Of a stretch of DNA of 39,029 nt, positions 8,061 to 25,816 are shown one piece after another. Positions within the stretch are counted from its first letter, which is position 1; the number at the start of each line of letters is the position of its first letter. The notes under the pieces are model-generated. The model made no database searches and was not told the origin of the DNA. It saw only the letters and a program-made list of their open reading frames with translations. Source of the stretch: Candidatus Margulisiibacteriota bacterium (lineage in GTDB: Bacteria; Margulisbacteria; Termititenacia; Termititenacales; Termititenacaceae). The translations under genes were made by a program, and so were the position numbers. The DNA lies in NCBI GenBank assembly GCA_031267055.1, contig JAIRZV010000126.1, positions 1 to 39,029 of the forward strand, in the 5' to 3' direction.

Positions 8061-8063
8061 AAA

Positions 8064-10118: not shown

Positions 10119-13100
10119 TCACCTCGGTATAGTCACAGTCACAGCGGGTGCGGTTTTTATATCCAGTTCCGGCTGCGGAGCTGGAATATCCAGTTGGGGA
10201 GTTGGAGTTAATTCCCGTTCTGGCTCTGGATTTTGGGCTGTCTCTGTGCCAAGTTCTTGGTCATCTTCTCTAACTCCCGCAGGCGTTTCCGCTTCCGGCG
10301 GCGCCACAGATTTGCCTGTCGCCAGAGCTTGCAGTTCTCTATCCGCAACACGATCGACTATTTGCGGTGTGCCCGGATTGGTCAGAACAGTCACATTAAA
10401 TCCTGTCGGCTCGCCGTTGTTAAATGTAATTTCTGCCTTAGTTTTATTGCCCAGTAGTCCTTCTTCAATTATTAAAGCCTTACCATCGCCCGGAGCCGAA
10501 ATATCCATTTTCTTGCCGCCGATCTGCAGAGTATATCCGCCAGCGGGATTCCTGCTTATCGTCCCTGTTTCATTTTCTTCATCACCGTTGATGTCGCCGC
10601 TTACATTCCAACTGCTGACCTCGATACTCTGATTAAAACTTATATTTGCCGCGCGCAGGCCTTGATTAGCCCCGATCCTGCCGTCAACTTTTTTATTTAC
10701 AGCGTCGCCATTCTGCCATTGCCGACTGCTTATGTTGGGCTGGCCATTTTCATCGCGAAGCAGCAATGTATATGTTATGCCGGTTCCATTGGGATCTGCA
10801 ACTGTAAGTTTAGCATCATTAGTTTTCTTGTTTTGCTCTGTAATAAAGCCGATTGCTTTTTGATACATATCTCCACCCGGCGTCCAGTCGTGCGGCGCAT
10901 TGCCTGACCAGTAAAAATCTTTACCCAGTTTTTCGTTGCCGAATGTATACTGAGCGTCTATTTGTAGATGACCGGCGGTCTCACCATCGCCAAACAGGTG
11001 TTTGTTGATATCTTCCTCGGCTCCCTCTCCCAGCGCCTTTCCTAAAGCCTCTTTTAAAACTTCCAGCATGGTGAAAACGCGGCCGTTCATTATGCTTGCC
11101 GGATCGGGTTTATCAGCAAAACTGCCGTCCGTATTGGTCAGATTGACATAAACCGGCATTGTAATATCACCCAAACTGGTTAACGTTGCGGATACATCCG
11201 GTGTGCCATCCGGACGCAGCAGCACTTTAATTCCCGACGTTTCGGCATTGCCTACTATTTTCTGAATGAGTTCCGCTCTTTTTGCAGAATTCAGCTCTGT
11301 GCTGTCCCCGGCAAATGCCGACTCAAAACCAACAACCTTTGGCTGCACGATCTCGGGAGTCAAGCCGCCGCTGTGAATAATAACCGGCGGCTCGCCGCCG
11401 CTGGCCGCGACAAAGAAAATAGTTTTCATAGCGTCATTGATGCCGGCGTTATTGTCGCCTCCTAGAACTTTGCCCAACTCTGTTCTATTGGTGCCGTCCG
11501 CGCCGACTACACCGTTGAACTCCTCGCCAGTATTGGCTATAACGTCGGGTAGCTTCCCGTCAGCGCCACACAATTGTGTTCCGCCGTCCAAGCTGATCGC
11601 CGGATTTTTCTCTCTGAGGAAAACCTTCATAGCATCCTGATAGGCCGCAGCCGCGGGGTCATGTTCTTGTTCATCATCTTGTCTGCGTGATTCAGCCAGG
11701 AGATCGGTAAGTTTCTCCTCGCCTTGAGGCGTGTAACCGTAGCCCATCTTGCGCAGATCCCGCGTGGTCTGGGCTCCCATTTGGTTCAGCTCGTCCAAGG
11801 CCGCCCGCAGCTCGGGACTGAGCGGCTGTCCATTGGTTTCATCCAGTAACACTTCGCGCGTATTAAGTATCACGTTGAGGCAGTCTTTATTTTGCTCAAT
11901 AGTAGCCGTATTTCCCCTCGGCATATTTCTGATATTATCTAGCATCCCGGGTTGTAGCGTTGTGCCGGCGGCGTCTTTAAGGCCGAGAATGTCTGTCTCG
12001 AGAGTCCAAGACGGAGCGGTGTTGTAAAGTTCGATTTTTCCTTCTGTGGATATTTGTCTCCCTAAATCAATGTCTTCTCGTGTGACATCCCTTGTCGGCT
12101 CGCCGGCATTACACAGATTAGTTAAAGCGTTTGTCATATCTCGGCGGTAATCCGTTGACATCTGAGTGACACTGCTTTGGCGCTCAGTCATTGGAATAAT
12201 AACTTCTTTACGGAAAACCTCCGCGCGCATTTGTTCATTGGCTTCCAGAGCGCGGTTGCCAGCCGGCCCGAGCAGACTGCTCCGACCGCGGTTGTATTCA
12301 GTCATAGCATTGTCTATGCGGCGCAAGTTATTTATAGTAGTGGTATCATTTAGCTGAGAGTAAAAATGCGTTCTCAAGGCAGAATGCCAGTTTCGCCGAT
12401 TGGTGTTATCGTCCCGATAATGCTTTCTGGTGTTCTGCGCCGCCAGCATATCTCTGGTCAATTTAGCAAAGTCTTGATAGGCGGAACCTTCTTCGTCTGA
12501 GAAAAGGAGATTCAATTCCGGCGAATCTATGGTAATGTCAGCAATTTCAGCTATATTTTCTCTTATTTTTGCTCTATCCTCTGCTGTTACCGCCATGGCA
12601 TAGGCGCTTACTTGTTCAGTCAGTCGCTTATAAGTTACCGGATCGACAAGACGCAGTGAATTGTTCCGGGCCGCCGCCGGGTCCATCGTGAAGGCCTGAC
12701 CGACCAGACAGCGGGCAAAAAGTTCTTTACTGCGCTCCATGCTCATATCGCCGACATCATTGGCGGAGAAATTCTGCTCTATGGCGGTCTCATGGAAAGA
12801 CAGGATCGGAGGAGTGGTCAGTAATTTTATGGAGCGCACCGTAAAAATGCCGGCTAGCATATCTCTCTGGTCTTGCCCATCAGGAACAAGTCCCTCCGGC
12901 ATCTTGCCGAAAAGTTTCTCATCCCATTTTATCGTACCCTGCAAAATATCTTCGAAAGCCTGCTGCATAGCATCAAAATTTGTGACGTCTTCATCAGACA
13001 GCAGCCCGGCCTCGATCAAAGTGTTTTTGTAATGGCTTGCAGCCGCTCTGACCTGATCTAAATTGCCGCCGGTCACCGCTTTAGACAGATCATTCTGCGC

Positions 13101-16100: not shown

Positions 16101-19100
16101 AGTTGCCTCGCTTCTTGCAGTGGCTGCCTCTTGTCTCGCTGTACTTAGCTCTGCGGCTTTTTCCCTGACACGGCCCGCCGCTTCGTCTCTTGCGGTGGTT
16201 GCGGTTTCTATTTTTCCAGATGCAGCGGCTATCTCTCCCTCGGCAGCTTCTATTTGTCCGGGCGCGGCTTCTATTATTCTGTCTGCGTCCGCTATTTTTC
16301 CCCTTGCTACGGTTATATCTCCTTCTGCCTTTTGCAGGTTTTGAGCATGTTCAAGATTACTGTCGGCAGCAAAAACCTGATCAACAGTATCCGTATAATA
16401 TCCGTTTACCAGCCTATCTACTTCTTCATTGTTTCGGCTGGCTTGAGCATTTTTCAGCTCATCGCGTATATCTTTAGCTTCTTTAAGACGGCTCTGCGAA
16501 ACCGGATCGTCTTTTTGCTCCAATTCTTTGATTTCTGCGTCGAGCTGAGCAAGCATATTTTTAGCGGTCGGCTGGTATGCCGCATTCGTTTTGTGATCAT
16601 ACCTGGTTGGTGTTTTTCCGACTCCAGTAGTAATTATACTACGATTGCTGTTACCCGTAGCCGTTAGCAAAGCCGCACCATCTGCATTTACTTTATCAAG
16701 GTCTATACGAGCAAGGCTACAGCCTTCCGAGCCGCCCTGCGGGGTAGTCGCGCTGAGGCCCGGGAGACGCGACAAATCGTCTTGCTTATACAGGCAATAT
16801 CTGTCGCTCACATCTGTGATATTCGCGGGATCGTAATCAACATTGTAAGCTTCCATCACATTGCTGTAAGCCTGAAAATCGCTGAGCGTTTGTAGGCGGC
16901 TTCCCTCTAATTCGCTTCTTGAGAGGTCATGCGCTATCGAGCCGCCCGCATTAAAAGTATACTCGGTCGGGTCAACAGCTCCGGGTTTTTGACAAAGAAT
17001 TTTTACATCTTTTCCGGGATTGTTTTCGATCTCTTGGTCAGCAATGGCCCTTAATTCAGCGTCGCTATATTCTGTATTGTCAGCCTTGGGCGGCAGAAAA
17101 TAATTTCCGTCTTTATCAATAGAATATTTTATTTCTTTCCCGTCAACCTTTACAGAACCAGATTTCAGACCCAGATTTCTGGTCCTGGCATTGCTTCCTA
17201 AATGCCAGTCTGGAGTATAAATACCATTGTAATTTTCTCGAAAAGGCTCGCCAGCGTTAACCGTAAATCTATTTACGCCGCCGTCTTCGTCGGAATTCGC
17301 TACAGTTTTTAGTTTTTTTACTATGGCTTCCGAAAGTTTTGCGTTGGTAGAAACACTCGGGATTTGGCCGTTGATTAGCTGTTCTTTAACCTCCTGTTTA
17401 AGAACAACTGTAATAGTGCCCTGACTATCAATGTTTGCCGTAAACCAATCTTTGGCATTTTGGCGGACTATTTCCGCATCTTCTTTTCCCAGGTCGCCGA
17501 TCATGAAAGTCTCTACATCTTTTTGCATAGCAGTTATTTTCTTCATAACCTGTCTGGCCTCGTCTTCCTGGCCATTACTAATCATAAAAGCGATGGTATC
17601 TTTGGTTTTATCGTCAACAAACGTATTGTTCACATAAAAATCTTGAATTGGCTGGTATTGTTCCTTTTTTTCTTTATTCTTTTTAAGATCATTAGCTTGT
17701 TCCATTTCCTTGAGAAATTTATTGAATCGGGCATTTAATGTGCCGGGACTAGTATGTTTGCCAAGCAAGTCTTGCATAGACTGCACCATCTCGGCGTCAT
17801 TTTGAATACGCCGCGCGCCCTCTCCGGCATAGGCATCGGTCAGGACGGACATCACCTCTCTGGCGTCACGCGGATCCAGAGCGGCTAGCAGATTGCCGAC
17901 ATGCGCGCCGCCGGATAATTTATCCATCTGTGTTTGATAATTTGCCTGCTCTAAAATATTCTTAGCCAGGTCCGCCAGAGCTTTTACGAGAAGATCGGCA
18001 GTAGTCAGATCATTGTCAATTCTTTTCTCCGACTCGTCATCGTCCGGTGCGGCGGTCGACTCCACGCCGGAAAATTCAACTTTGCGGCCGCCCGTAGCGC
18101 CGGAGCCGCTCCTGCCGATTTCCACCATACCGTTCGCGCCGTCCGGCCCTTCCACAGCAATACTTATTTTATTTCCTTCGTCTAACGCTCTTTGTATCTT
18201 ATCGGCCTCTTCCGGCTTGCTGGTCATGGTCACTACTTCGCCGTCTTCGCCTGTTTTTGATATCTGCACCTGACCATCCGCGGTTATTTGCATAGTCACG
18301 CCGTTGCTAAGAGATATTGGCGCGGCTAATTGTTCCTGAGATTCTGCACGATTAACGGCGTTGGCATCGCCTGTCACTCCCTGTCTCCTCGTATTCTCAG
18401 CATCAACAGCATCGTCAATCTGTTTTTGGGTCGCGTTATCTGGAATATTAAGGCCTTTACCCTGTAACTCTTTTATAATATCAGCATTTTTGGCGGCGAT
18501 ATCTCCATTCTTAGCATCTATAGCTTGCCGAATTTTTTCAACAGGTGCGTCCTCAGCTATAGTAACGCCATTCGCTATTAAGTCGGCTATGGCTGCTTTT
18601 TGCGCTTCAAGGTTAGAGGTATCCATTGCAGCCGCGGTATCCCCATTTTTCGCGGCGATCATATCATTAAGCTCTGTTGGAGTTTTGTTCTGCAACCTTG
18701 AGACGTCGTTGATCCCAAGTTGACCAGCCAATGTTTCTAGTTCATCTTGATCAGTTACTACTTCTTGTAAAATGGGTGGGCCGTCTCCATTTTCCTCGAC
18801 TCTATAGGTAACGCCGTCAGCCGTAATAGTGCCGTCATCATTAGCTTGCGCACCTGACCATGTTCCATTATCGTAACTGAGACCGCCTCCATAGTCATAA
18901 GCTCCCGCCATGTTTTCTGTTACTTTCGCAGAACTTTCTGTGCCTTTGTAGCCTTGATAAATTTCACCATCATTATCTCGTATATCACTTGCTACAACAT
19001 TACCCCACCCGGTATCTTGAGCAACAATATTCTTGGCAACATCCTCATTACCTCTTGCTTGATAATCTGTTTCAACTGTAGTCTCTAAGCCGCCCGCAGT

Positions 19101-22100
19101 TGTAAACTTCATATCTTTTTTCATGTTTCCTTCAGTAACATGCAGTGTAGAATTTTTCTTAAGGGTTTCTCTATACGCAGCATAATTGGGATTATCTTTA
19201 CTCACACCCATATCGGCCAATAGTGCATCCAAACGTTGTTCCGCCATCGCTGCTACTCCATTTTCCCCCCAAGCGCCAACTGCCTGTCCACCTCGATGCG
19301 TGTTATTTACATAGATTTGCGCCTGCATTGCGTTAATGACTGCCTTTTGTTGTTCTTCAGTCAGATCATTAAAAGCTACGAGTTTACCATCAAGCTTAAT
19401 CTCAACCTCATTACCGCCTGCCTGATCTCCAACATTTTTAACAGCAGTTTTTACGGACACTTCTAGCTTGTTTGTGACTTGTGTGCCGGTACGAGGATTG
19501 CCGTCCTTAAATCGAGTAGTGATTTGGTCAGGATCTCCCTGTTTCAGCTGGTCTATTACCGTATCGTCGAGTGTAGCGCCTTCCACCGTGGTCGCTTCTG
19601 GTTTCTGCAACTCTCCCTTGGCATCAATAGCGTTGGCGCCGGGGTGTTTGCTGTAGCTTGTGCCCCAGTCCAGGAGGTCTCCGGTAAGCAAAGCGGCCCC
19701 GAGCTTCAGCCAGGCAAAAGCCAGGCCCACAACGGCGCCAGTTAAGCCTTTTAACATGCCGGCTTCTGATTGCAGATAGTTGTCAGCCGCGGCTGCTGTC
19801 GCTTCACCGAACGCTTTCACATCAGGGTCATTCGGATGTTCTTTTACATATTTAGATAAGGCCGCCGGATCGATATTACCTGCGGAATCCACGGCAATAT
19901 TGGGGTCTTTACTTTTTATTTGCGCTTCTAATTCTCCTCGCGACTCGCCTCTGGCTTTGTTAAATGCGCCAAGATCACCGCCGCCACCACCCATGCCCAT
20001 AAAACCGCCTGTGCCGGTGGTATTTAACCCTTTGGTATCCTTATTTTGTCCGCCGACAGCGCTGGTCCCCAAACCAACTACTCCTGAAATAGACTTACCA
20101 GCCTTGCTCTGCCAAAAACTATTCGCGCCATTCTTTCCCTGCATATCTTTACCTGTTTTGAAAAAGTCGCCTATTTCCTGCAAGAGCTGACTGCCTTTTT
20201 GCTTCCAGGCATTGCCGCCGTATTTTTCCAGATTCTTCTCGATACCGTCTTTAAAATCTCCCGCAGCTCGCACAGCTGCGATAGTGGCGCTGGTCAGACC
20301 GGCGGTAGCGGAAATTATTTTGTCTATTTGCGTGTCAATTTTCTTGTCGGTTTCTTCCAGTTTGGACGCCTTGCTGACCAGTTGTTCCAGCATAGCTCCA
20401 GCCACACCGGCCTCGAGGCCGGCGACCATTTCCGCCGCCGAGGGCAGATTGGCGCCGGCCGCGCCGCTGATTTTGGAAGTGATCTTGCCACGCGCTTCAC
20501 CTTTGGCACGGTGCACTTTGCGCAGCGCGGCATTGATGCGCTCCATTTTTTTCATATTGGCCTGCATCAACGAGAGCTGAAACTTCGCCGCGCCGCCATT
20601 GGTCATCAGCCCAAAAAAATCGCTATTCGTGCCTTCCAGCGGATCAGTGTCGCCGGTAGTCTGCTGCACCAAGTCGCCACTGCCCTTGCCGTCAACATCC
20701 TGCCTGGCCTTTTCCCTGGCTTTTTTGGTAATATCTTTCAGCTCTTCCTGCTGTTTGTATTTCAGGATCGCCAGTTTTACCATCGTGACAATAGCCTCAA
20801 AAAAACTGCACACTGCCATTGCCAGACCGGATACGCCGGACATTAAACTAAAACAAGTGCCAAGTTGAGGAATAATGCCTAAAACAATCAATACGACAAT
20901 AGCGACTGCCGCAACGATCGTGCCGATTATGCCAAAAGTTCTTTTGACTTCTTCATTTTTCTGCGCTGACTGCGCGTCATAGATTTTTTGCTTGATACTC
21001 ACTATATCATTGACTGTGCTGGTCAGGTCCTGTGCTTTGGACTGGATGAATTGATTTTCCGCGCCGACCGCTCCGCCGGAATAATTACTCAAACTAAGAT
21101 TACTGACATTGGTCAGGACTTGATGCACCATCGAGCGGGAAGCCGAGCGCGTGTTGTACATAGCCTGCCAAATCGCGTTCAAATAAGAAAGTCCGTAAAT
21201 ATCGGCCTGCGCTTTATTCATATTTTCAAAATTGACGCTGTAACTGGCCACACCGCCAAAAATACCGGCGGGTACTTCGGTCTTTACAATCAAACCGTTT
21301 TCAGATTCGCTGTACAAGACGCTGTCGGTATACACATTCACACCCTTACTGGTTGATTTGATCTCTCCCTGGCTGTTATAGAGACGAGTGCCAGCTTCGT
21401 TCAGTTTCTCGGCATTAGCTTGCCCTATGCCGTTGGTTAAACTATGCAGACTGGTTGCGTCGGGCTGCCCCATATTAGCGTAGGATTTTGCCAATAATTC
21501 ATCGCACTTTGGCCCCACCAGATAGCCAAACGGCCCAGCCATGCTGACCCAGGCCTGCTTCCAGCGCTGCTGCTCGCGCTCGATCATGGCATTGCGCGTC
21601 TGAATGCGCTGCTCCTCACGCTGAGCGTAAGCGGCGATGATCGAAGTGACATACTGGAATTCTGCGGAGAGCGCCTGCTCAGCCAGACCGGATACCTGAT
21701 ACGTGGTGGTGTTAGTCATTTCTTGGTGGACTATGTTGCGCGACTCGAGATTGTAGCGCTGGATCATGAATTGTGCGCGGCGCAAATTGACCGCCTGTGT
21801 AGCCTGATAACGCATCCAGGCGATGCGCGCGCGATAAGTCATTTGATAATTATCTTTGGCCACATCGATGGTTGATTTAGTTAGGCCATCTGCTTCGGAA
21901 ACATCAGCAATATTTTGAGTGTTGCTGTTAACATTGACGCTGCTCTTTACTTGATTTTCAACATTGTTGGTGGGCGCCAATATATTGAGCAGCCAGTCGA
22001 ATATACCGCCGCCGCCGACAATATTTCCGATGAGATTGGCCGGATTGCCCCACAAAGATCCACTTTTATCTATAACATCATATTTGCTTATTTCGCGGTT

Positions 22101-25100
22101 GGTCAGACCGACGTGCACGCCTTTGTTCCATTCGTCCTGTAGTATTTTCAACACGTCCACTTCGCCTGCTATCGCGTAATCGCCCGCGCCGGTCATACTA
22201 CCAAAACTGCCACCGCTGTAGCCGTAGCCGGATTCAGAGCCGTTAACAACGCCTGTCATGTCAAACTCGCGGCGCAGATCATCTCTGTCCCAGACACTTT
22301 CTTTAGCGTTAAACAAAGTTTTTACTATACCAATCGCCGACTGCGGGTCCATAGGCACTTCGATGAATGAGCATAGAAAACCAATGCCAAAGGCCGTGGA
22401 TTCCAACTGGAATAATTTAGTTAGTTTATCCGCATTAGCTGCGGCAGAAAGACTGGCGTTGTACGCGGAAATATATTCCTGACGCAGTTGTTTTATTTCA
22501 TTGAATTTTTCCATGATGACAGACTGCTCCTGCTCGATCAGGCTGCTGACCAGTGTGGAAGTCGTGTAGCCGGATTGCGAGGTCATTTCGGTATGCACGG
22601 CGTTGCGCGACTGTGCTTTGGCCGCATGCAGGCTGCCGAGCGTACGATTTATGATTTGCAAACGGCTGATCTCTCTTTCCAAAACAATGAATTTTTCATC
22701 ATTGTCATAGATCAGCCCGTCGGCGCCTCTTTTGAATTTCACTTTGGCCGCTTCGTCGAGCAGACTGTACTGCATCTGCATATTGGCTGCGATCGCTTGA
22801 GCCGAGCCGCTGTCACTAAAATGTTTTAAAACTTCTGTGTAGGTTTGTGTACGGGAAGACGCTAGGTCCTTAGCGCTACTCTGCGTCTGCGCCAGATTTT
22901 TACCGGCAACTTCGGCTTTGGGTTTGGAAACTTTATCCCATTTTTCCTGCGCGGCTTCCGCTTTGTTCTGGTCTTGCTCCAGAGTGATCGTGCCGGAAAT
23001 AAGCGCTGATAATTTACCGAGAATAGTATTGAGAAAAAATCCGGACAAGGCCAGGCCTGCGCCAATACAAAATGCCACGCCGGCAGCAGCAAGGGGAGCG
23101 GCCGTTCCAAGAGACGCGGCGGTCATTGCAATGCCGGCAGCGCTAGCAATAATAGTTGCAGCTAATACAGGAATAGCGGCGGCAACCGAAGCCGCGGCTA
23201 TAGCCGCCGGTATTTGCAAAGCCATTAAATCTTTTTTGTTGCCTCTACTCCTTCCTACAGCGTCATAAGTGACTTTTGCGACTAACGGTATAGCCACAGC
23301 CATACCTATGCCTAAAACTATGACTCCCGGTATTGCCCACCCCGCCCAAGCGCTGGCTGCCATAGTTGCTCTACCTGTAGCCTGCATAGCGCCAAAAACG
23401 CCTATTCCGGTTACGCCAGCTGCCGCAAAAGCCACAGAAGATACCGCGGCTATCATCGATAAAACTCTGTTCCGGTCTTTTTGGATTTCGTCTATCTCTT
23501 TGCTGATCACGGACTCCATGAGTTGATTGTGCTGATTGACGATGCCGACGGCTTCTTTTTTCAGCTCGTTCACATCCTTGAGCAGCGTGTCCGTTTCGGT
23601 CTGAATGATCTGCGAAGCCTTCATGGATTTGTAAGCTTCTTCGGAGCCGACGCGCTCCAGCTCCGCGCCCACTATATTGTAAGCTTCATTTTGCGCTTCC
23701 ATGACCATGGCCAGAAAAGCGAGAATATTTCTTTGAAACAAAAATTCTACGCGCGCTTTCTCAAACTTGTCGTCTTCGTATCGCCAAAAATCACTGCGGT
23801 CATCAATAAAATTACCGATATTTGTCATTGTAGTTATTTCTGTCTGTGTTTTGCGTTGATTTACACCCCAAACATCTGTACGATTATTCAGAATGCTGTC
23901 AATGCTGTTACCATCATTACCGTTAGACTTGAGTTTTTTTAGAACGCTTTTGACATCTTCCGGCGAAGCGTCTCCGGACCACGCGCCTTTTTCATATATA
24001 GCCGTTGAGCCAAAAATTATATTGTTGGCGTAAAAATCCGAGATCAATTTTGTATCCGGCTGGCTCAATTTCCCGTAAGTGGAGCTTGTGCCTTCGGACA
24101 CATACCCCGCCTTGGGGTTGAATCTCTGGACAGAGCGGGAGTAAAGATTGTTCGAGATACTGTACTCCTGGCCGAAGTCCGCGGAGAGGGAGAGAGCGTT
24201 TACCGGCACATAGCTGTTTATGGACAGCAGATCATCAGCGGTCTTGACCAATCCCAGCTGCAATTGCGGGCTGACTATCTTGTCCGAGAAATCGAACACA
24301 CGGTCAACACCGCTGCTGTCCTGATAGAGCATGACCCATTGTTTTTCGCCGGAAGCCTTGTCCGTGGCCTCGCAAACACGCGCATTTGGCAGAGAGGCGC
24401 CTGTCTTAGCCGCAAGAGCCAGTAAAGAATTGACCGCCAGTAAAGCGAGATTTTGCGAAGCGCCGGCCTTGGTATCAATAACCAAGCTCTGATTCGGAAA
24501 AACATCCTGCAAATCCAGACATTGATACTCTGTCTTGATATAGTTAAAAAGCTTGGCGGTGATCTCGTCCATAGACAGCCCGCTCAGATCCATCGCGCCC
24601 TCAAATTCCGCCAAGAATTTGCTCAACGCCGGATCGGTCGGATCGATATAGGCTTTGGCATTATTCTCGAGAAACTCCAGCTGCGCCGCTGTGCCAAAAA
24701 CTTTGTTATCATTGAAGCGGAAATACACGTCGAAACTTAATTCATTTACCTGTTTCAGATCAGAGAGTTTGGCAATATTGCCCTGCTCGGCAAAGGCGGC
24801 ATCTAATGCGTAAGTCTGTCCGTCATCTGCTAAATACTCCACAAAGACATGGTCTCCATACACGGCATGTTTGCCAGCTACCGCCGACACACGGCTATTG
24901 GCGGTCTGATAATCCATACCCTCATTCATGAGCAGCGCGATCATTGCTGAGGCTAATAAGATCGATAGATCTTCACAATCGCCGCCGCGCTGAAAGATCG
25001 TCTCACCGACAAAATTCCAGTCATCTTTATCCTCCGGCACATAGTTAAAATTGTCGATGATGTAATTATAAAGTTTCGTTAGTTTTTCTTCCGCAGAAAG

Positions 25101-25520
25101 TTTGGGATTATCCAGTTCCGGAATTTGGGTAAGCAGTTTGGAAATTTCGGGATCAAAAGGATCGATATAAGTGTCTACGCTATTGTAACCACTAGACAGA
25201 TCTGAATAGCCAAAAGCCGCGTCGACAAAAGAACTTTCACCGTTGTAAGAGACCAGATAATAAGAGTCATTGTCAGAATTTACCTTGCCGGCCACATCAT
25301 ACTGCTTGATGTTATAAATATATGAGCCGTTGTCTTCCTCGATAGAGAGCTGACCGCGTTGCGTAAAACCACGTGAGAGTGAGGCGCTGTCTGACGCGGT
25401 CGCGTTATAAACGCCGTTCTCCGCGGCGCGGGCAATATAAGCCGGATCGGCCGGTACGGTCGCATTCAGACCTGCTGCTAACATGCCGGCGTCTAATGTC
25501 CCTCGAATATTATCAACCAT
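10119..25520 (-). CDS. giant multidomain membrane-associated protein, 5,133 aa, function unknown
   Basis: Uninterrupted 15,402-nt frame. The ATG at 25518-25520 is preceded by AGGGGG four nt upstream. All ORFs in other frames across this span are short, low-complexity shadows. Recognisable parts are listed as separate sub-features. Confidence 0.9.
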   Translation of the reverse strand: MVDNIRGTLDAGMLAAGLNATVPADPAYIARAAENGVYNATASDSASLSRGFTQRGQLSIEEDNGSYIYNIKQYDVAGKVNSDNDSYYLVSYNGESSFVDAAFGYSDLSSGYNSVDTYIDPFDPEISKLLTQIPELDNPKLSAEEKLTKLYNYIIDNFNYVPEDKDDWNFVGETIFQRGGDCEDLSILLASAMIALLMNEGMDYQTANSRVSAVAGKHAVYGDHVFVEYLADDGQTYALDAAFAEQGNIAKLSDLKQVNELSFDVYFRFNDNKVFGTAAQLEFLENNAKAYIDPTDPALSKFLAEFEGAMDLSGLSMDEITAKLFNYIKTEYQCLDLQDVFPNQSLVIDTKAGASQNLALLAVNSLLALAAKTGASLPNARVCEATDKASGEKQWVMLYQDSSGVDRVFDFSDKIVSPQLQLGLVKTADDLLSINSYVPVNALSLSADFGQEYSISNNLYSRSVQRFNPKAGYVSEGTSSTYGKLSQPDTKLISDFYANNIIFGSTAIYEKGAWSGDASPEDVKSVLKKLKSNGNDGNSIDSILNNRTDVWGVNQRKTQTEITTMTNIGNFIDDRSDFWRYEDDKFEKARVEFLFQRNILAFLAMVMEAQNEAYNIVGAELERVGSEEAYKSMKASQIIQTETDTLLKDVNELKKEAVGIVNQHNQLMESVISKEIDEIQKDRNRVLSMIAAVSSVAFAAAGVTGIGVFGAMQATGRATMAASAWAGWAIPGVIVLGIGMAVAIPLVAKVTYDAVGRSRGNKKDLMALQIPAAIAAASVAAAIPVLAATIIASAAGIAMTAASLGTAAPLAAAGVAFCIGAGLALSGFFLNTILGKLSALISGTITLEQDQNKAEAAQEKWDKVSKPKAEVAGKNLAQTQSSAKDLASSRTQTYTEVLKHFSDSGSAQAIAANMQMQYSLLDEAAKVKFKRGADGLIYDNDEKFIVLEREISRLQIINRTLGSLHAAKAQSRNAVHTEMTSQSGYTTSTLVSSLIEQEQSVIMEKFNEIKQLRQEYISAYNASLSAAANADKLTKLFQLESTAFGIGFLCSFIEVPMDPQSAIGIVKTLFNAKESVWDRDDLRREFDMTGVVNGSESGYGYSGGSFGSMTGAGDYAIAGEVDVLKILQDEWNKGVHVGLTNREISKYDVIDKSGSLWGNPANLIGNIVGGGGIFDWLLNILAPTNNVENQVKSSVNVNSNTQNIADVSEADGLTKSTIDVAKDNYQMTYRARIAWMRYQATQAVNLRRAQFMIQRYNLESRNIVHQEMTNTTTYQVSGLAEQALSAEFQYVTSIIAAYAQREEQRIQTRNAMIEREQQRWKQAWVSMAGPFGYLVGPKCDELLAKSYANMGQPDATSLHSLTNGIGQANAEKLNEAGTRLYNSQGEIKSTSKGVNVYTDSVLYSESENGLIVKTEVPAGIFGGVASYSVNFENMNKAQADIYGLSYLNAIWQAMYNTRSASRSMVHQVLTNVSNLSLSNYSGGAVGAENQFIQSKAQDLTSTVNDIVSIKQKIYDAQSAQKNEEVKRTFGIIGTIVAAVAIVVLIVLGIIPQLGTCFSLMSGVSGLAMAVCSFFEAIVTMVKLAILKYKQQEELKDITKKAREKARQDVDGKGSGDLVQQTTGDTDPLEGTNSDFFGLMTNGGAAKFQLSLMQANMKKMERINAALRKVHRAKGEARGKITSKISGAAGANLPSAAEMVAGLEAGVAGAMLEQLVSKASKLEETDKKIDTQIDKIISATAGLTSATIAAVRAAGDFKDGIEKNLEKYGGNAWKQKGSQLLQEIGDFFKTGKDMQGKNGANSFWQSKAGKSISGVVGLGTSAVGGQNKDTKGLNTTGTGGFMGMGGGGGDLGAFNKARGESRGELEAQIKSKDPNIAVDSAGNIDPAALSKYVKEHPNDPDVKAFGEATAAAADNYLQSEAGMLKGLTGAVVGLAFAWLKLGAALLTGDLLDWGTSYSKHPGANAIDAKGELQKPEATTVEGATLDDTVIDQLKQGDPDQITTRFKDGNPRTGTQVTNKLEVSVKTAVKNVGDQAGGNEVEIKLDGKLVAFNDLTEEQQKAVINAMQAQIYVNNTHRGGQAVGAWGENGVAAMAEQRLDALLADMGVSKDNPNYAAYRETLKKNSTLHVTEGNMKKDMKFTTAGGLETTVETDYQARGNEDVAKNIVAQDTGWGNVVASDIRDNDGEIYQGYKGTESSAKVTENMAGAYDYGGGLSYDNGTWSGAQANDDGTITADGVTYRVEENGDGPPILQEVVTDQDELETLAGQLGINDVSRLQNKTPTELNDMIAAKNGDTAAAMDTSNLEAQKAAIADLIANGVTIAEDAPVEKIRQAIDAKNGDIAAKNADIIKELQGKGLNIPDNATQKQIDDAVDAENTRRQGVTGDANAVNRAESQEQLAAPISLSNGVTMQITADGQVQISKTGEDGEVVTMTSKPEEADKIQRALDEGNKISIAVEGPDGANGMVEIGRSGSGATGGRKVEFSGVESTAAPDDDESEKRIDNDLTTADLLVKALADLAKNILEQANYQTQMDKLSGGAHVGNLLAALDPRDAREVMSVLTDAYAGEGARRIQNDAEMVQSMQDLLGKHTSPGTLNARFNKFLKEMEQANDLKKNKEKKEQYQPIQDFYVNNTFVDDKTKDTIAFMISNGQEDEARQVMKKITAMQKDVETFMIGDLGKEDAEIVRQNAKDWFTANIDSQGTITVVLKQEVKEQLINGQIPSVSTNAKLSEAIVKKLKTVANSDEDGGVNRFTVNAGEPFRENYNGIYTPDWHLGSNARTRNLGLKSGSVKVDGKEIKYSIDKDGNYFLPPKADNTEYSDAELRAIADQEIENNPGKDVKILCQKPGAVDPTEYTFNAGGSIAHDLSRSELEGSRLQTLSDFQAYSNVMEAYNVDYDPANITDVSDRYCLYKQDDLSRLPGLSATTPQGGSEGCSLARIDLDKVNADGAALLTATGNSNRSIITTGVGKTPTRYDHKTNAAYQPTAKNMLAQLDAEIKELEQKDDPVSQSRLKEAKDIRDELKNAQASRNNEEVDRLVNGYYTDTVDQVFAADSNLEHAQNLQKAEGDITVARGKIADADRIIEAAPGQIEAAEGEIAAASGKIETATTARDEAAGRVREKAAELSTARQEAATARSEATAARNTAIAARKAAVSARKTAVEANGEALQIRKDATETRNEASETRDKAIEKRGEAAPARRAADQKDGEATAKILEASGARTMADTAKAKALTSRGAANTAAETAARSRRAADVAARDAAAAKRTWETDADKADRKRTEANNARGFIDGLKERITDLQARLVEGLSEAEKTEIDTAITELEDKILELEPGAAALETAAAGLEGDATESKKKYDELQGTAETLEGTAKTDEATADTLETTAKTDKAEANRLDGIADGLETEAKELETEAKRLKGIAEKLEEEVERLEEQATELEEKARGLEKDAIEAEEKAGYLNQEAEMLSNTATGLEEAADGLEDRASDLEATARDLEKKVRDLEIELEAAKADLAQAQADLAQAQADLEEAQEKKRQLEKDLDAAIRAKAQAQAELTDALRAKERAEEAIKATNTQLSRTLEAQREAEAAAEARQQAQKEEDEGTISAETAVQAEAVEAKTDQQVANSAETQPDWAALARQEVGDSMAKMNSLEDRVQQFGDPLNVGWMGSGPNATEAALKIITKNIEADPERSQLTVNGQLTLYSYYNRTVNSLTSIMNPESDPVAWEQTQRAYATNQGIGASLEKEIDKVEHDTGLRMPLTSDTKLSEMYAVAGGLPDLDNEDDPAVKKNFAKTAGKIGTALRITIDKFSYQKQQEGEEFSSENEAILQNAVNLDAQLLTDETRQYELGSIQYQEAIKRHTANCGHYIWSSSSSTANRGEAIGFVVRSMENLPEEVKREISCGENGLGLPDTVSTGSILDDDTVEAVSKNIDDRFKIEKEPPQSKALLEAYANIRSLEQARTTNAFVNLDLIDKYPDLFTAEGLIALLKEITRKAQLEGIDPRSTDQYKMYSAIIDIILYAPDDALMEKLNLTPEGLEDLRSRIKETQKTVEGIIDEIPELGNPDFSQHINIAAGTGNKLNFMARVQLLSSDFDAVGALLANRREDKKLAERINNMREVTSASAGQVLKQALANSNVGRIAHANIIAAQNDLSKAVTGGNLDQVRAAASHYKNTLIEAGLLSDEDVTNFDAMQQAFEDILQGTIKWDEKLFGKMPEGLVPDGQDQRDMLAGIFTVRSIKLLTTPPILSFHETAIEQNFSANDVGDMSMERSKELFARCLVGQAFTMDPAAARNNSLRLVDPVTYKRLTEQVSAYAMAVTAEDRAKIRENIAEIADITIDSPELNLLFSDEEGSAYQDFAKLTRDMLAAQNTRKHYRDDNTNRRNWHSALRTHFYSQLNDTTTINNLRRIDNAMTEYNRGRSSLLGPAGNRALEANEQMRAEVFRKEVIIPMTERQSSVTQMSTDYRRDMTNALTNLCNAGEPTRDVTREDIDLGRQISTEGKIELYNTAPSWTLETDILGLKDAAGTTLQPGMLDNIRNMPRGNTATIEQNKDCLNVILNTREVLLDETNGQPLSPELRAALDELNQMGAQTTRDLRKMGYGYTPQGEEKLTDLLAESRRQDDEQEHDPAAAAYQDAMKVFLREKNPAISLDGGTQLCGADGKLPDVIANTGEEFNGVVGADGTNRTELGKVLGGDNNAGINDAMKTIFFVAASGGEPPVIIHSGGLTPEIVQPKVVGFESAFAGDSTELNSAKRAELIQKIVGNAETSGIKVLLRPDGTPDVSATLTSLGDITMPVYVNLTNTDGSFADKPDPASIMNGRVFTMLEVLKEALGKALGEGAEEDINKHLFGDGETAGHLQIDAQYTFGNEKLGKDFYWSGNAPHDWTPGGDMYQKAIGFITEQNKKTNDAKLTVADPNGTGITYTLLLRDENGQPNISSRQWQNGDAVNKKVDGRIGANQGLRAANISFNQSIEVSSWNVSGDINGDEENETGTISRNPAGGYTLQIGGKKMDISAPGDGKALIIEEGLLGNKTKAEITFNNGEPTGFNVTVLTNPGTPQIVDRVADRELQALATGKSVAPPEAETPAGVREDDQELGTETAQNPEPERELTPTPQLDIPAPQPELDIKTAPAVTVTIPR
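10122..10330 (-). other. Pro/Glu/Thr-rich C-terminal tail of the giant protein (about aa 5063-5133)
   Basis: The tail reads ATGKSVAPPEAETPAGVREDDQELGTETAQNPEPERELTPTPQLDIPAPQPELDIKTAPAVTVTIPR. It looks like a low-complexity, disordered region and carries no known C-terminal sorting motif. Confidence 0.6.
14748..15503 (-). repeat. in-frame 21-nt (heptad) tandem array B, 36 units, consensus L-E-x-x-A-x-x (aa 3340-3591)
   Basis: The protein reads LEGTAKT DEATADT LETTAKT ... LETEAKE LETEAKR LKGIAEK LEEEVER LEEQATE LEEKARG ... AKADLAQ AQADLAQ AQADLEE. DNA-level near-identical units are present, e.g. 3 x 21 nt at 14963-15025, 2 x 21 nt at 15297-15338 and 2 x 42 nt near 15376-15460. Confidence 0.85.
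15669..16151 (-). repeat. in-frame 21-nt (heptad) tandem array A, 23 units, consensus x-A-x-x-x-R-x (aa 3124-3284)
   Basis: The protein reads ELSTARQ EAATARS EATAARN TAIAARK AAVSARK TAVEANG EALQIRK DATETRN EASETRD KAIEKRG EAAPARR ... The DNA shows a 21-nt periodic ...TTTCTTGC... pattern, e.g. at 16042-16146. Confidence 0.85.
20763..20936 (-). other. hydrophobic hairpin 2 of the giant protein (aa 1529-1586), two predicted TM helices
   Basis: FGIIGTIVAAVAIVVLIVLGIIPQLGTCFSLMSGVSGLAMAVCSFFEAIVTMVKLAIL forms two uncharged ~22-25-aa stretches separated by a short PQLG turn. Charged residues flank it (KRT... / ...KYKQQEE). Confidence 0.7.
22992..23465 (-). other. hydrophobic cluster 1 of the giant protein (aa 686-843), at least four predicted TM helices
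   Basis: The cluster reads VLSMIAAVSSVAFAAAGVTGIGVFGAM / ATMAASAWAGWAIPGVIVLGIGMAVAIPLVAKV / LMALQIPAAIAAASVAAAIPVLAATIIASAAGIAMTAASLG / TAAPLAAAGVAFCIGAGLALSGFFLNTILGKLSALISG. The Ala/Gly/Ile-rich stretches are separated by short polar or basic loops (QATGR, GRSRGNKKD). Confidence 0.7.
24285..24659 (-). other. degenerate (catalytically dead) duplicate of the transglutaminase-like domain (aa 288-412)
   Basis: It parallels the first copy segment by segment: YIDPTDPALSKFL vs YIDPFDPEISKLL; ITAKLFNYIKTEYQ vs LTKLYNYIIDNFNY; KAGASQNLALLAVNSLLAL vs RGGDCEDLSILLASAMIAL (Cys to Ser355); QWVMLY vs DHVFVEY (His to Trp395); VFD vs ALD (Asp retained). Confidence 0.6.
24771..25169 (-). other. transglutaminase-like cysteine protease core (aa 118-250) with intact Cys-His-Asp triad
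   Basis: QRGGDCEDLSILLASAMIALL (Cys182, nt 24975-24977), GDHVFVEY (His224, nt 24849-24851) and TYALD (Asp240, nt 24801-24803). The C-42-H-16-D spacing and the preceding LYNYIIDNFNY helix are typical of the transglutaminase-core superfamily. Confidence 0.7.
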
Positions 25521-25690: not shown

Positions 25691-25725
25691 ATATTAGTGG
25701 GGGGGGGGGGGGGGGTAACTGTTAA
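25691..25725 (-). promoter_or_regulatory. candidate promoter of the giant gene: TTAACA - 23 nt (including C17) - TAATAT
   Basis: The minus strand reads TTAACA gtta CCCCCCCCCCCCCCCCC ac TAATAT. The -35-like hexamer is at 25720-25725 and the -10-like hexamer at 25691-25696. The hexamers were identified by eye only. A 23-nt spacer is 6 nt longer than the 17-nt optimum. Confidence 0.3.
25699..25715. repeat. homopolymeric tract G17 (+) / C17 (-)
   Basis: Counted directly: 17 consecutive G from 25699 to 25715, 179 nt upstream of the giant-gene ATG. It is the only long homopolymer I saw in the window. Confidence 0.95.
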
Positions 25726-25816
25726 TCGATACTAAATTAAAATCTTTATTAAAAACTTTTTTCATATAAAACTCCGCTTTTTTGTTTTTTCACAAAAATC
25801 GTTCAACACTCATTTG

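What the first reader, a model, noticed from the sequence alone, without database searches (positions are those of the whole stretch)
10119..25520. Orphan 5,133-aa giant ORF with no recognisable export signal or partner genes
One uninterrupted 15,402-nt frame occupies 39% of the window and has a good SD and ATG. I recognise only one enzymatic fold in it, an N-terminal transglutaminase-like cysteine-protease core. In order, the rest consists of the following parts. First, a dead duplicate of that core. Second, five divergent helical modules carrying Ala/Gly-rich hydrophobic segments; aa 686-843 and 1529-1586 are strong TM candidates. Third, about 1,100 aa of Asp/Gly/Asn/Thr/Lys-rich sequence with no motif I know. 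Fourth, about 530 aa of exact heptad coiled coil. Fifth, about 1,450 aa of unknown mixed sequence, and finally a Pro/Glu-rich tail. I see no N-terminal Sec/Tat/lipoprotein signal (the N-terminus is MVDNIRGTLDAGMLAAGLNATVPADP...). I also see no LPXTG, PEP-CTERM, RTX nonapeptide array, autotransporter barrel or T9SS-like C-terminal domain. The flanking genes are housekeeping (prs, Na/Pi symporter). Topology, export route and function are therefore all unexplained. A protease-fold head plus internal hydrophobic hairpins plus a long coiled-coil stalk resembles, in form only, membrane-inserting effectors/toxins or cell-cell contact proteins of host-associated or episymbiotic bacteria. That comparison is inference, not homology.
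Basis: partly seen in the sequence, partly recalled or inferred. Interest (0 to 1): 0.88.

Follow-up and report, generated by a model that had tools for sequence, protein, structure and literature searches.

The report
Giant protease-headed membrane protein, Margulisbacteria family
The 5,133-residue gene is real but not an orphan: it belongs to an undescribed family of giant proteins found only in Margulisbacteria, here in a relative of a termite-gut bacterium that lives attached to spirochaetes. The family combines a LapG-like protease head, exactly five helical membrane-inserting modules and a fast-changing tail.

Summary
"Orphan" is wrong. The flanks are 90% identical in DNA to Candidatus Termititenax aidoneus, which carries a giant gene (at least 4,015 aa) at the same locus. 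An exhaustive search of 1.84 billion representative proteins gave 28 relatives. Every taxonomically named one is from Margulisbacteria, and several are 3,600-5,150 aa.

The family core has three parts:
- A conserved N-terminal peptide.
- An optional LapG-like cysteine-protease head. Here it keeps the Cys-His-Asp triad and the D-C-E calcium motif, and is followed by a dead duplicate.
- Exactly five helical-hairpin modules in every complete member, each running into a hydrophobic hairpin.

The 3,400-aa tail diverges to 10-28% identity between genomes whose flanking DNA is 90% identical. It includes a 525-aa heptad coiled coil unique to this protein. A long poly-C tract lies upstream of three Termititenax family genes (17, 21 and 13 C).

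My best reading (confidence about 0.4) is a phase-variable, membrane-anchored contact fibre for the host spirochaete, exported by an unknown route. A cytoplasmic-face scaffold and a toxin-like effector remain live rivals. No function has been tested.

The parts
10119..25520 (-). Complete giant ORF: 5,133 aa, about 555 kDa, net charge -228, 17 Cys
25699..25715 (-). Poly-C tract of 17 (G17 on the plus strand), about 180 nt upstream of the ATG. It is the only G/C homopolymer of 9 or more in the 39-kb window. The orthologous position in Ca. T. aidoneus has C21, and a T. persephonae paralogue has C13 upstream.
25269..25520 (-). aa 1-84: N-terminal region modelled as disordered. It carries the family-wide signature AG.G..P.Y[IL]..E (here AAGLNATVPADPAYIARAAE, aa 15-33). 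Candidate targeting or secretion peptide.
24681..25268 (-). aa 85-280: LapG-like (BTLCP, transglutaminase-fold) cysteine-protease domain with C182, H224 and D240, plus the calcium-motif residues D181 and E183. GGDCEDL is invariant in the family alignments.
24111..24680 (-). aa 281-470: degenerate duplicate of the protease domain (Cys changed to Ser, His changed to Gln). It is well folded in the model, with pLDDT 80-90 over aa 290-420.
23469..23780 (-). aa 581-684: helical-hairpin module 1 (helices 583-621 and 635-699 in the model)
22998..23468 (-). aa 685-841: Ala/Gly-rich hydrophobic cluster, read as two helical hairpins (686-748 and 765-835) separated by a basic loop
22281..22742 (-). aa 927-1080: module 2 (loop motif SRNAVHTEMTSQSGY) plus a weakly hydrophobic, degenerate hairpin
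21486..21875 (-). aa 1216-1345: module 3 (loop motif SRNIVHQEMTN). The hairpin that follows is degenerate.
20760..21272 (-). aa 1417-1587: module 4 (loop motif SRSMVHQVLTN) plus a strong hydrophobic hairpin at aa 1528-1574 with a two-residue turn (PQ)
20211..20576 (-). aa 1649-1770: module 5, the most divergent copy
16386..20210 (-). aa 1771-3045: first part of the variable acidic tail. It has no Pfam, NCBIfam, PHROGs or PDB sequence match, and only 6-31% identity to the syntenic orthologue. aa 2226-2845 are 43% identical to P0014.
17751..18008 (-). aa 2505-2590: short landmark conserved in the Termititenax-type tails (LLAALDPRDAREVMS), shared with L007, P0015, P0016 and P0017
14811..16385 (-). 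aa 3046-3570: heptad coiled coil of about 525 aa. It would be about 78 nm long if continuous (inference from 0.1485 nm per residue). No other available family member has a coiled coil of this length.
10371..14810 (-). aa 3571-5050: second part of the tail, mixed alpha and beta, Gly-rich and beta-like near the end. It is 38% identical to P0014 over aa 3636-5103 and otherwise without homologues.
11382..11654 (-). aa 4623-4713: island almost identical between this protein and P0014, inside a region that is otherwise about 38% identical
10119..10370 (-). aa 5051-5133 plus the stop codon: Pro/Glu/Thr/Ala-rich C-terminal tail (16% Pro)

Best explanation
**What it is.** This is a member of an undescribed family of giant membrane-associated proteins. 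Every taxonomically named member comes from Margulisbacteria. The window comes from a close relative of Ca. Termititenax aidoneus.

**Shown.** The family constant is a short N-terminal signature peptide plus exactly five helical-hairpin modules. Each module is helix A of about 40 aa, a conserved loop (SRNxVHQEMTG) and helix B of about 60 aa. The hydrophobic Ala/Gly-rich hairpins of the family always lie directly after a module's second helix. This subfamily adds a LapG-type cysteine-protease head with an intact Cys-His-Asp triad and the D-C-E calcium motif, followed by an inactive duplicate. A tail of 0-3,400 aa follows the modules. The tail is hypervariable between near-identical genomes. In this protein it contains a 525-aa coiled coil and a beta-like C-terminal region.

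**Inferred.**
- The five-module block is a membrane-embedded base. Every hydrophobic insertion reads as a hairpin, so head and tail lie on the same side of the membrane.
- I infer that side to be outside the cytoplasm, for three reasons. The head keeps the calcium site of periplasmic LapG proteases. Paralogues carry PKD/Ig arrays at the same position. The head of P0008/P0009 contains DxDxDG-type sequences that look calcium-binding.
- The tail then projects as a long acidic fibre that contacts the host spirochaete.
- The protease head processes the protein itself or a partner.
- Expression is switched by slippage of the upstream poly-C tract.
- Export would need a non-classical route, for which the conserved N-terminal peptide is the only candidate signal.
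For: **Family and taxonomy**
- Two word-indexed searches of 5.8 billion protein clusters found 13 related clusters.
- An exhaustive phmmer search of 1.84 billion representatives found 28 proteins at E <= 1e-3.
- Every source name that gives a taxon says Margulisbacteria or Termititenax. Many hits carry no taxon name.

**Orthology**
- The flanks from prs to tgt are 90% identical in DNA to Ca. T. aidoneus.
- A giant ORF of at least 4,015 aa sits at the same locus there.

**Five modules**
- All 26 members that reach module 5 have exactly five copies, over lengths from 1,549 to 5,152 aa.
- Hydrophobic segments of 19-103 aa, mostly 35-80 aa, lie directly after modules and almost nowhere else.

**Head**
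- The top Foldseek hits are LapG (4fgp, 4fgq, 4fgo, 4u65; E 1.4e-5 to 6e-5).
- LapG is the only PDB sequence hit for the head and shares the GGDCED motif.
- In a LapG-family protease, the D and E flanking the catalytic Cys were mutated as the predicted calcium-binding site (D316A/E318A) and the enzyme lost activity (PMC13090378).
- GGDCEDL and H224 are invariant in the family alignments.

**Hints that the head is outside the cytoplasm**
- Paralogues P0003-P0006 carry PKD-type arrays between the head and the modules.
- The P0008/P0009 head contains DxDxDG-like sequences (read by eye).

**Hypervariability**
- Identity to the syntenic orthologue is 83-93% over aa 1-400, 42-73% in the windows that hold module cores, and 6-28% beyond aa 1800.

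**Poly-C tracts**
- C17, C21 and C13 lie upstream of three Termititenax family genes. Each is the only long G/C homopolymer in its locus.

**N-terminal signature**
- It is present in 12 of 18 divergent members, against 0.7% of random 50-aa windows. Members without the protease head also have it.

**Ecology**
- Termititenax is described as attached to ectosymbiotic spirochaetes (title of Utami et al. 2019, cited in PMC7608387).
Against: - I recognised no signal peptide or secretion signal of any known type, and no secretion genes lie next to the gene in the window or consistently in 15 related loci.
- Exporting a protein with a 680-aa N-terminal domain and no signal peptide has no known route.
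- The hairpin flanks are 1.6-fold enriched in Lys/Arg, and the loops inside the hairpins are nearly uncharged. That is what a cytoplasmic-face anchor would show.
- The family also occurs in Margulisbacteria outside termite guts, for example SAG AM-324-J15 and Marinamargulisbacteria MAGs. The core function therefore cannot be specific to spirochaete attachment.
- The model of the module region is poor (mean pLDDT 47) and has no significant structural match.
- The head does not reach the Pfam gathering score, and the Pfam BTLCP model was not reported at all.
- The poly-C length differences are between species, not within a population, and homopolymers are prone to sequencing error.
- Nothing was tested experimentally.
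Confidence: 0.4

Rival explanations
1. **Cytoplasmic-face scaffold.** The protein is never exported. The hydrophobic hairpins insert from the cytoplasm into the cell's own inner membrane, and their very short loops would suit insertion by YidC. The head, modules, coiled coil and tail all stay in the cytoplasm, forming a membrane-tethered cytoskeletal or polar 'attachment-organelle' scaffold. The protease head would act on cytoplasmic substrates.
For: - I saw no signal peptide.
- No secretion partner genes are adjacent.
- All hydrophobic insertions read as hairpins with loops of 2-7 residues that are almost uncharged, and Lys/Arg are enriched 1.6-fold in the flanks.
- The protein has a long coiled coil and is largely helical.
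- The family is present in Margulisbacteria outside termite guts.
Against: - The D-C-E calcium site is that of periplasmic LapG proteases. Free calcium is very low in bacterial cytoplasm (general knowledge).
- PKD/Ig arrays in paralogues at the position of the dead duplicate are typical of extracellular proteins.
- Tail hypervariability and upstream poly-C tracts are typical of surface contingency genes.
- The flanks are only marginally net positive (198 Lys/Arg against 181 Asp/Glu).
Confidence: 0.27
2. **Secreted toxin or effector.** The whole protein is released, for example by lysis, by a holin-like route or by a C-terminal type I signal. It binds the target cell through the variable tail. 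The five hairpin modules insert into the target membrane as a single-chain five-fold helical channel or anchor. The protease head is delivered or activated there, as in large clostridial toxins, MARTX toxins or Tc toxins.
For: - The order of parts matches AB-type toxins: an N-terminal enzyme, then hydrophobic helical hairpins, then a variable C-terminal region.
- The Ala/Gly-rich, moderately hydrophobic segments with tiny uncharged turns could insert without a translocon.
- A copy number fixed at five suggests a closed five-fold assembly.
- The best, though non-significant, structural neighbours of the module model include the TcaA-TcaB toxin subunit, the ClyA pore and the pentameric MRS2 channel of the CorA family.
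- The protein is acidic and low in Cys, like type I secretion substrates.
Against: - The Foldseek matches are not significant (E >= 0.05) and the model is poor (pLDDT 47).
- No immunity gene, secretion gene or lysis cassette is adjacent.
- Some members lack the enzymatic head entirely, so delivery of the head cannot be the core function.
- In this protein the hairpins after modules 2, 3 and 5 are degenerate.
Confidence: 0.2
3. **Artefact.** The ORF is an assembly chimera or a decaying pseudogene, or it is a phage or mobile-element protein such as a tape measure.
For: - The long coiled coil (aa 3046-3570) has no counterpart in any relative.
- The window's own protein was not returned by the protein-database searches.
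- No read data were available.
Against: - The frame is open for 5,133 codons (chance about 1e-107).
- Independent assemblies carry collinear giants: L007 (at least 4,015 aa, syntenic) and P0014 (4,581 aa).
- GC content is like that of the flanks.
- There are no PHROGs matches better than E 0.0016.
- The neighbours are housekeeping genes.
Confidence: 0.04

Closest known systems
LapG / BTLCP proteases (bacterial transglutaminase-like cysteine proteinases; PDB 4FGO, 4FGP, 4FGQ, 4U65; DvhG of Desulfovibrio)
   Same: - Transglutaminase-like fold: LapG is the top Foldseek match (E 1.4e-5).
- Cys-His-Asp triad.
- The GGDCED sequence around the nucleophile, in which D and E correspond to the residues mutated as the predicted calcium-binding site of DvhG.
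- An association with a giant protein.
   Different: - LapG is a soluble periplasmic enzyme secreted by means of an N-terminal signal. It is controlled by LapD and c-di-GMP, and it cleaves a separate type I secreted adhesin at [T/A/P]AAG (PMC13090378).
- Here the domain is fused to the N-terminus of the giant protein itself. It has no signal peptide, no LapD and no type I secretion neighbours.
- It is followed by a dead copy.
- It does not reach Pfam thresholds.
LapA-type giant type I secreted adhesins and MARTX toxins
   Same: - Multi-thousand-residue, acidic, Cys-poor proteins without an N-terminal signal peptide.
- Functionally linked to a transglutaminase-fold or other cysteine protease.
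- A variable, extended passenger region.
   Different: - No RTX nonapeptide array.
- No Ig-like repeat array in this protein.
- No ABC transporter, membrane-fusion protein or TolC genes nearby.
- No homology was detected.
- Internal hydrophobic hairpins and a five-fold helical module have no counterpart in LapA.
Giant proteins of Omnitrophota (West-Roberts et al. 2023, bioRxiv 10.1101/2023.11.21.568195)
   Same: - Giant ORFs in small bacteria described as adopting predatory lifestyles.
- Numerous predicted transmembrane regions.
- A cysteine peptidase (C39) near the N-terminus.
- Mostly unannotated sequence, and proposed roles in attachment.
   Different: - A different phylum and no sequence relationship.
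- No SecA-DEAD domain.
- No adjacent type II/IV-like secretion cluster or PilZ genes.
- 5 thousand rather than 30-85 thousand residues.
- A strictly five-fold module instead of many scattered transmembrane helices.
Alpha-helical pore formers and five-fold channels (TcA of Tc toxins, ClyA, CorA/MRS2); hairpin-anchored effectors such as chlamydial Inc proteins
   Same: Long antiparallel helical hairpins whose ends carry a hydrophobic hairpin. The five copies recall pentameric TcA and CorA. These are the top, non-significant, Foldseek neighbours.
   Different: - E >= 0.05 on a low-confidence model, so this is resemblance in form only.
- The five units sit in one chain.
- A conserved polar loop motif (HQEMTG) lies at the end of the hairpin far from the membrane.
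- No sequence similarity.

Membership tests
BTLCP / LapG-type cysteine protease | Transglutaminase-like (papain-like) fold | tested here: met
   The AlphaFold model has pLDDT 80-94 over aa 85-275. Foldseek hits 1-6 are LapG structures, with E 1.4e-5 to 6.1e-5 and TM-score (normalised to the target) 0.52-0.58.
BTLCP / LapG-type cysteine protease | Cys-His-Asp catalytic triad | tested here: met
   C182, H224 and D240 are present. C182 and H224 are invariant in the 6- and 14-sequence family alignments. The third residue is Asn in P0008/P0009. This rests on sequence position only; the geometry in the model was not measured.
BTLCP / LapG-type cysteine protease | Calcium-binding acidic residues flanking the nucleophile (D-C-E) | tested here: met
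   D181-C182-E183 are invariant. L. pneumophila LapG has the identical GGDCED. DvhG with D316A/E318A, mutations in its predicted calcium-binding site, is inactive (PMC13090378). Calcium binding by this protein was not tested.
BTLCP / LapG-type cysteine protease | Match to the curated family model at its threshold | tested here: not met
   The Pfam scan at E <= 1 reported only Transglut_core (PF01841) at 20.1 bits, below its gathering score of 23. No BTLCP model was reported. NCBIfam gave nothing. The PDB sequence hit to LapG has E 0.036-0.28.
BTLCP / LapG-type cysteine protease | Periplasmic soluble enzyme with an N-terminal secretion signal, partnered with LapD and a type I secreted adhesin bearing a [T/A/P]AAG site | tested here: not met
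   I saw no signal peptide. There are no LapD-like or type I secretion genes in the window. The N-terminus has LAAG at aa 14-17, with TAAG or AAAG in two relatives, but members without the protease head carry the same N-terminal signature, so it is unlikely to be the cleavage site.
RTX / MARTX type I secretion substrates | Array of GGxGxD nonapeptide repeats and adjacent type I secretion genes | tested here: not met
   There is one isolated GG.G.D match, at aa 1844. No HlyB/HlyD/TolC-type genes are in the window.
Phage tape-measure or virion proteins | Match to phage protein families and a phage gene context | tested here: not met
   The best PHROGs E-value is 0.0016, to a coiled-coil family of unknown function. 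The neighbours are housekeeping genes.
New Margulisbacteria five-module family (defined here) | Exactly five helical-hairpin modules with the loop motif SRNxVHQEMTG, hydrophobic hairpins directly after modules, and the N-terminal signature AG.G..P.Y[IL] | tested here: met
   Five modules in the window protein and in all 26 members that reach module 5. Hairpins after modules 1 and 4 and a weaker segment after module 5. N-terminal signature at aa 15-33.

The most novel reading that the evidence does not exclude
The five-module block is a single-chain, pseudo-pentameric helical assembly: ten long helices with hydrophobic hairpin feet. Together with the conserved N-terminal peptide it would form a self-contained membrane-insertion or export device peculiar to Margulisbacteria. 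That would be a new way to place very large cargo on or across a membrane (protease heads, PKD arrays, 3,000-residue fibres) without Sec, type I secretion or autotransporter machinery. In Termititenax it would be used as a phase-variable contact organelle for the host spirochaete.
Probability: 0.2. Interest if true: 0.88.

Novelty: new variant of a known kind. Interest (0 to 1): 0.62.

Why it matters
Termititenax lives attached to spirochaetes that are themselves attached to termite-gut protists, and I know of no described molecule that mediates this attachment. This gene family is a concrete candidate. It is giant, multi-copy and hypervariable between near-identical genomes, and it is preceded by slippage-prone poly-C tracts.

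More generally, the family defines a strictly five-fold helical and hydrophobic module and an N-terminal signature. Neither has any counterpart in Pfam, NCBIfam, PHROGs or the PDB. It also shows a LapG-type protease fused to a giant protein, rather than acting on one in trans. If the head and tail are outside the cell, an unknown export route must exist in this sister lineage of the Cyanobacteria. Either outcome can be tested with a small set of localisation and protease assays.

Tried and rejected
**Searches that failed or found nothing**
- The tail aa 3600-5133 against 5.8 billion protein clusters gave no hit.
- PDB sequence searches of aa 1901-3050 and aa 3600-5133 gave nothing meaningful.
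- NCBIfam and PHROGs gave only coiled-coil noise.
- Pfam on short-headed relatives gave nothing informative.
- Foldseek of the module model gave no significant match.
- Two metagenome scans were empty: an exact search for the poly-C flank, and a related-loci search with the head.
- The genomic context of P0014 is not on record.
- The Utami et al. 2019 and Chatterjee et al. 2012 papers are not held.

**Ideas considered and dropped**
- *T9SS sorting domain.* The CHU_C Pfam hit listed for P0003 is one of many overlapping Ig-type hits and is not at the C-terminus.
- *Syntaxin/SNARE relationship.* The hits have E 0.007-0.57 and fall in helical, coiled-coil-like stretches.
- *N-terminal LAAG as a LapG-type self-cleavage site.* The same signature occurs in members that lack the protease, and [TAP]AAG is not enriched (3 observed against 1.3 expected).
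- *Internal sequence repeats in the tail.* Self-BLAST found none.
- *A conserved partner gene.* Only a 97-107-aa (about 100-aa) charged helical ORF recurs upstream of some paralogues, and it is absent from the window.
- *Positive-inside topology call.* Inconclusive.


Full report
**1. Observation**

The window holds one uninterrupted minus-strand ORF at 10119..25520, starting with ATG and encoding 5,133 aa. A GGGGG run sits just upstream of the start. At the window's base composition, the chance of 5,133 codons without a stop is about 1e-107. GC content (0.43-0.52) is like that of the flanks. The product is about 555 kDa, strongly acidic (net -228) and Cys-poor (17 Cys).

The neighbours are ordinary. 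On the upstream side are prs (divergent), recR, ybaB, secF, secD, tgt and a class I (Trp/Tyr-type) tRNA synthetase. On the downstream side are a Na/Pi cotransporter with a PhoU domain (58 nt away, same strand), a UPF0175/DUF3368 pair, a Fic-HTH gene and prfC. The window has no tRNA gene.

**2. The listed parts are real**

- *First protease core.* Pfam gives only a sub-threshold Transglut_core hit at aa 139-193 (20.1 bits against a gathering score of 23). An AlphaFold model built on 14 family sequences folds aa 85-275 with pLDDT 80-94.
- *Dead duplicate.* The model folds aa 290-420 with pLDDT 80-90. The second domain aligns to the first at E 9e-10. GGDCED is replaced by AGASQN, and the His-bearing DHV by KQW, so it is catalytically dead.
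- *Five modules.* An HMM seeded on three internal copies finds five helical modules in the protein.
- *Hydrophobic segments.* Uncharged Ala/Gly-rich stretches lie at aa 686-748, 765-835 and 1528-1574.
- *Coiled coil.* Heptad phasing is very strong from aa about 3046 to 3570. The score reaches 0.94, against a 99th-percentile shuffle value of 0.36, and the DNA shows 21-nt periodicity.
- *C-terminus.* The last 83 residues are 16% Pro.
- *Absences.* I saw no Sec or Tat signal. There is no LPXTG and no RTX array.

**3. It is not an orphan**

A search with aa 1-1600 returned only proteins whose taxonomic names, where given, are Candidatus Termititenax or Margulisbacteria. A profile search raised this to 13 clusters.

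A scan of one genome per GTDB species found 44 loci. The full-length relatives that carry a taxon name are all Margulisbacteria (several are labelled only 'uncultured bacterium'). The remaining loci share only the transglutaminase-fold core.

Window 26104-32345 aligns to Ca. T. aidoneus contig BGZN01000001.1 at 90% nucleotide identity. The giant gene sits at the same place there (locus L007). It is open for at least 4,015 aa and runs off the fetched stretch. The window therefore comes from a close relative of T. aidoneus, and an independent assembly confirms a giant gene at this locus.

An exhaustive phmmer search with aa 900-1780 against 1.84 billion representative proteins found just 28 proteins at E <= 1e-3. 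They include giants of 4,581, 4,991, 4,855, 3,606, 5,152 and 4,110 aa. Sources name them 'hypothetical protein' or 'transglutaminase-like putative cysteine protease'. Three of the six giants carry Margulisbacteria or Termititenax names and the others carry no taxon.

P0014 (MAG LBK68) is collinear with the window protein:

| Window protein (aa) | Identity to P0014 |
|---|---|
| 1-739 | 82% |
| 823-1747 | 62% |
| 2226-2845 | 43% |
| 3636-5103 | 38% |

P0014 lacks the coiled coil. I found no paper describing this family.

**4. Family anatomy**

*Five modules.* Every member that reaches module 5 has exactly five modules. That is 26 proteins of 1,549-5,152 aa, with pairwise identity down to about 20%. 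The module consensus is EVDEERLAKLRAKLERLQNLKRALAMLQEAKAESRNLVHQEMTGISGREKSSLAEQAIEAESQLALKKFNELVSLLQERVQAHNKKVEAEKEI.

In the models, each module is a roughly 40-aa helix, the conserved loop, and a roughly 60-aa helix that continues into hydrophobic sequence. In module 1 the second helix spans aa 635-699 and runs into the hydrophobic cluster, which starts at 685.

*Hydrophobic segments.* Segments of 19-103 aa, mostly 35-80 aa, which I read as two-helix hairpins, occur directly after modules and almost nowhere else in any member. Which modules carry them varies. In this protein they follow module 1 (expanded to two hairpins) and module 4, with a weaker segment after module 5.

*N-terminal signature.* The signature AG.G..P.Y[IL]..E lies at residues about 11-40 in 12 of 18 divergent members, against 0.7% of random 50-aa windows. 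The pattern was defined after looking at the alignment. It is present even in members that lack the protease head.

*Variable region between signature and modules.* It can be absent or short, a protease plus dead duplicate (as here), or a protease plus six or seven PKD-type domains (P0003-P0006).

*Tail.* It ranges from about 100 to 3,400 aa.

**5. The head is LapG-like**

Foldseek of the head model against the PDB ranks six LapG structures first (E 1.4e-5 to 6.1e-5). They are followed by a Cytophaga putative cysteine protease, the CPR-C4 protease and the vasohibins, all transglutaminase-fold cysteine proteases.

LapG is also the only PDB sequence hit for the head. It shares the string GGDCED around the nucleophile. 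In the LapG-family protease DvhG, a double mutant of the Asp and Glu flanking the catalytic Cys (its predicted calcium-binding site) is inactive, as is a mutant of the Cys itself (PMC13090378). In this family G180-D181-C182-E183-D184-L185 and H224 are invariant.

The head is therefore best described as a LapG-type, probably calcium-dependent, cysteine protease. It fails the curated sequence thresholds, and it lacks LapG's signal peptide and its LapD and type I secretion partners. I treat it as a new variant rather than a member.

**6. Evolution and regulation**

Identity to the syntenic T. aidoneus orthologue varies along the protein (100-aa windows):

| Region of the window protein | Identity |
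|---|---|
| aa 1-400 (head) | 83-93% |
| windows holding module cores | 42-73% |
| windows holding the hairpins and linkers between modules | 23-32% |
| beyond aa 1800 (tail) | 6-28% |

The flanking DNA is 90% identical, yet no nucleotide match to the orthologue was found beyond roughly aa 1490. Divergence this strong is more than vertical drift since the two genomes split would be expected to give. This is inference. It points to recombination with divergent alleles or paralogues, and each Termititenax genome has at least two paralogues plus PKD-type relatives.

A roughly 90-aa island (aa 4623-4713) is almost identical to P0014, inside a region that is otherwise 38% identical. The 525-aa heptad coiled coil is unique to this protein among available relatives.

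A poly-C tract lies about 180 nt upstream of the start, with conserved flanks. It is C17 here and C21 in T. aidoneus, and a T. persephonae paralogue has C13. In each locus it is the only long G/C homopolymer. This is the classic form of a slipped-strand contingency switch (established knowledge from Neisseria, Campylobacter and Treponema), but I could not test length variation within a population.

**7. Mechanism**

*Shown:* the domain order, the fixed five-fold module, the placement of the hairpins, the LapG-like head and the hypervariable tail.

*Inferred:*
- The hydrophobic insertions read as hairpins, so the head, the modules and the tail should lie on one side of the membrane.
- Three features point to the extracytoplasmic side: the calcium site of a periplasmic protease family, PKD arrays in paralogues at the same position, and DxDxDG-like sequences in the P0008/P0009 head (read by eye).
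- The hypervariable tail and the poly-C tracts fit a surface contingency gene. The host organism is described as living attached to spirochaetes (title of Utami et al. 2019, cited in PMC7608387).
- My best model is a membrane-anchored, phase-variable contact fibre with a self- or partner-processing protease head. The coiled coil alone would span about 78 nm.

The weak point is export. No known signal or machinery is present, and the conserved N-terminal peptide is only a candidate signal.

**8. Rivals**

- *Cytoplasmic-face scaffold (0.27).* This is the simplest reading of 'no signal peptide plus short-loop hairpins'. It is consistent with the modest Lys/Arg enrichment of the hairpin flanks (16.5% against 10.2% overall).
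- *Secreted toxin or effector (0.20).* Its five hairpins would insert into the target membrane. This fits the order of parts (enzyme, hairpins, variable tail) and the five-fold count. The structural neighbours that suggest it (TcaA-TcaB, ClyA, MRS2) are not significant (E >= 0.05) and come from a model with pLDDT 47.
- *Artefact or mobile-element origin (0.04).* This is unlikely, given the collinear giants in independent assemblies and the negative PHROGs result.

**9. Comparison and novelty**

The head is a new, fused variant of LapG/BTLCP proteases. The overall form resembles giant adhesins, MARTX-type toxins and the giant transmembrane proteins of Omnitrophota, but without homology, RTX repeats, SecA domains or secretion-gene neighbours.

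The five-module core and the N-terminal signature match nothing in Pfam, NCBIfam, PHROGs, PDB sequences or PDB folds. Family members sit in public databases as hypothetical proteins. I file it as a new variant of a known kind, namely giant protease-associated membrane or contact proteins of attached bacteria. I give a 0.2 chance that the core is a new membrane-insertion or export device.

**10. Verdict**

Interest is 0.62: a coherent, lineage-restricted, uncharacterised family with several unusual and testable features, but no functional data.

Noticed in passing
window 25699-25715; L007 9787-9807; L010 10003-10015: A long poly-C tract (C17, C21, C13) lies upstream of three Termititenax family genes. 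In each locus it is the only G/C homopolymer of 9 or more. The flanks are conserved between the window and T. aidoneus. It may be a slipped-strand phase-variation switch, or it may reflect homopolymer sequencing error.
   Followed up: partly
window 25813-26055: About 400 bp in the intergenic region between prs and the giant gene (roughly 25720-26104) have no counterpart in T. aidoneus. Within this stretch, 25813-26055 carries about five copies of a roughly 14-bp palindrome (GGCAAA[T/G]AT.TTTGCC) in both orientations. It could be an operator array or a small inserted repeat element.
   Followed up: partly
L002 4875-5165; L010 9312-9632; L011 about 3881-4153; L012 2877-3191: A conserved 97-107-aa (about 100-aa), highly charged, probably helical ORF lies immediately upstream of (and in L002 overlapping) the family gene in several paralogue loci. 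It is absent upstream of the window's gene and of L007, L009 and L001. It could be a chaperone or partner.
   Followed up: partly
window 11382-11654 (aa 4623-4713): A roughly 90-aa block is nearly identical to P0014, while the surrounding tail is only about 38% identical. This suggests recent gene conversion or an unusually constrained element (sequence AAAYQDAMKVFLREKNPAISLDGGTQLCGADGKLPDVIANTGEEFNGVVGADG...).
   Followed up: no
window 6542-8354: A low-GC stretch (0.37 at 7001-8000) holds a Fic/DOC protein with an HTH domain and a UPF0175/DUF3368 pair (read as a toxin-antitoxin-like pair), between prfC and the Na/Pi cotransporter. It is probably a small mobile or addiction-module island.
   Followed up: no
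window 35130-35957: A 275-aa protein made of five DUF4116 repeats lies in a low-GC segment (0.37 at 35001-36000) among housekeeping genes. It may have been acquired horizontally.
   Followed up: no
window 8396-10060: A Na/Pi cotransporter with PhoU domains starts 58 nt after the giant gene's stop codon on the same strand, with no terminator-like site between them. In Pseudomonas the LapG system responds to phosphate, so the adjacency to a LapG-like head is curious, but it is probably coincidence.
   Followed up: no
P0008/P0009 (L005, L017-L019), head region aa about 400-700: The head of this sub-clade carries repeated DxDxDG-type sequences (for example NDLDGDGLPG, FLDTDGDHIRD, LDNDGDGIDDT). 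They resemble extracellular calcium-binding loops of the thrombospondin type 3, dockerin or FG-GAP kind. No Pfam model matched them.
   Followed up: no
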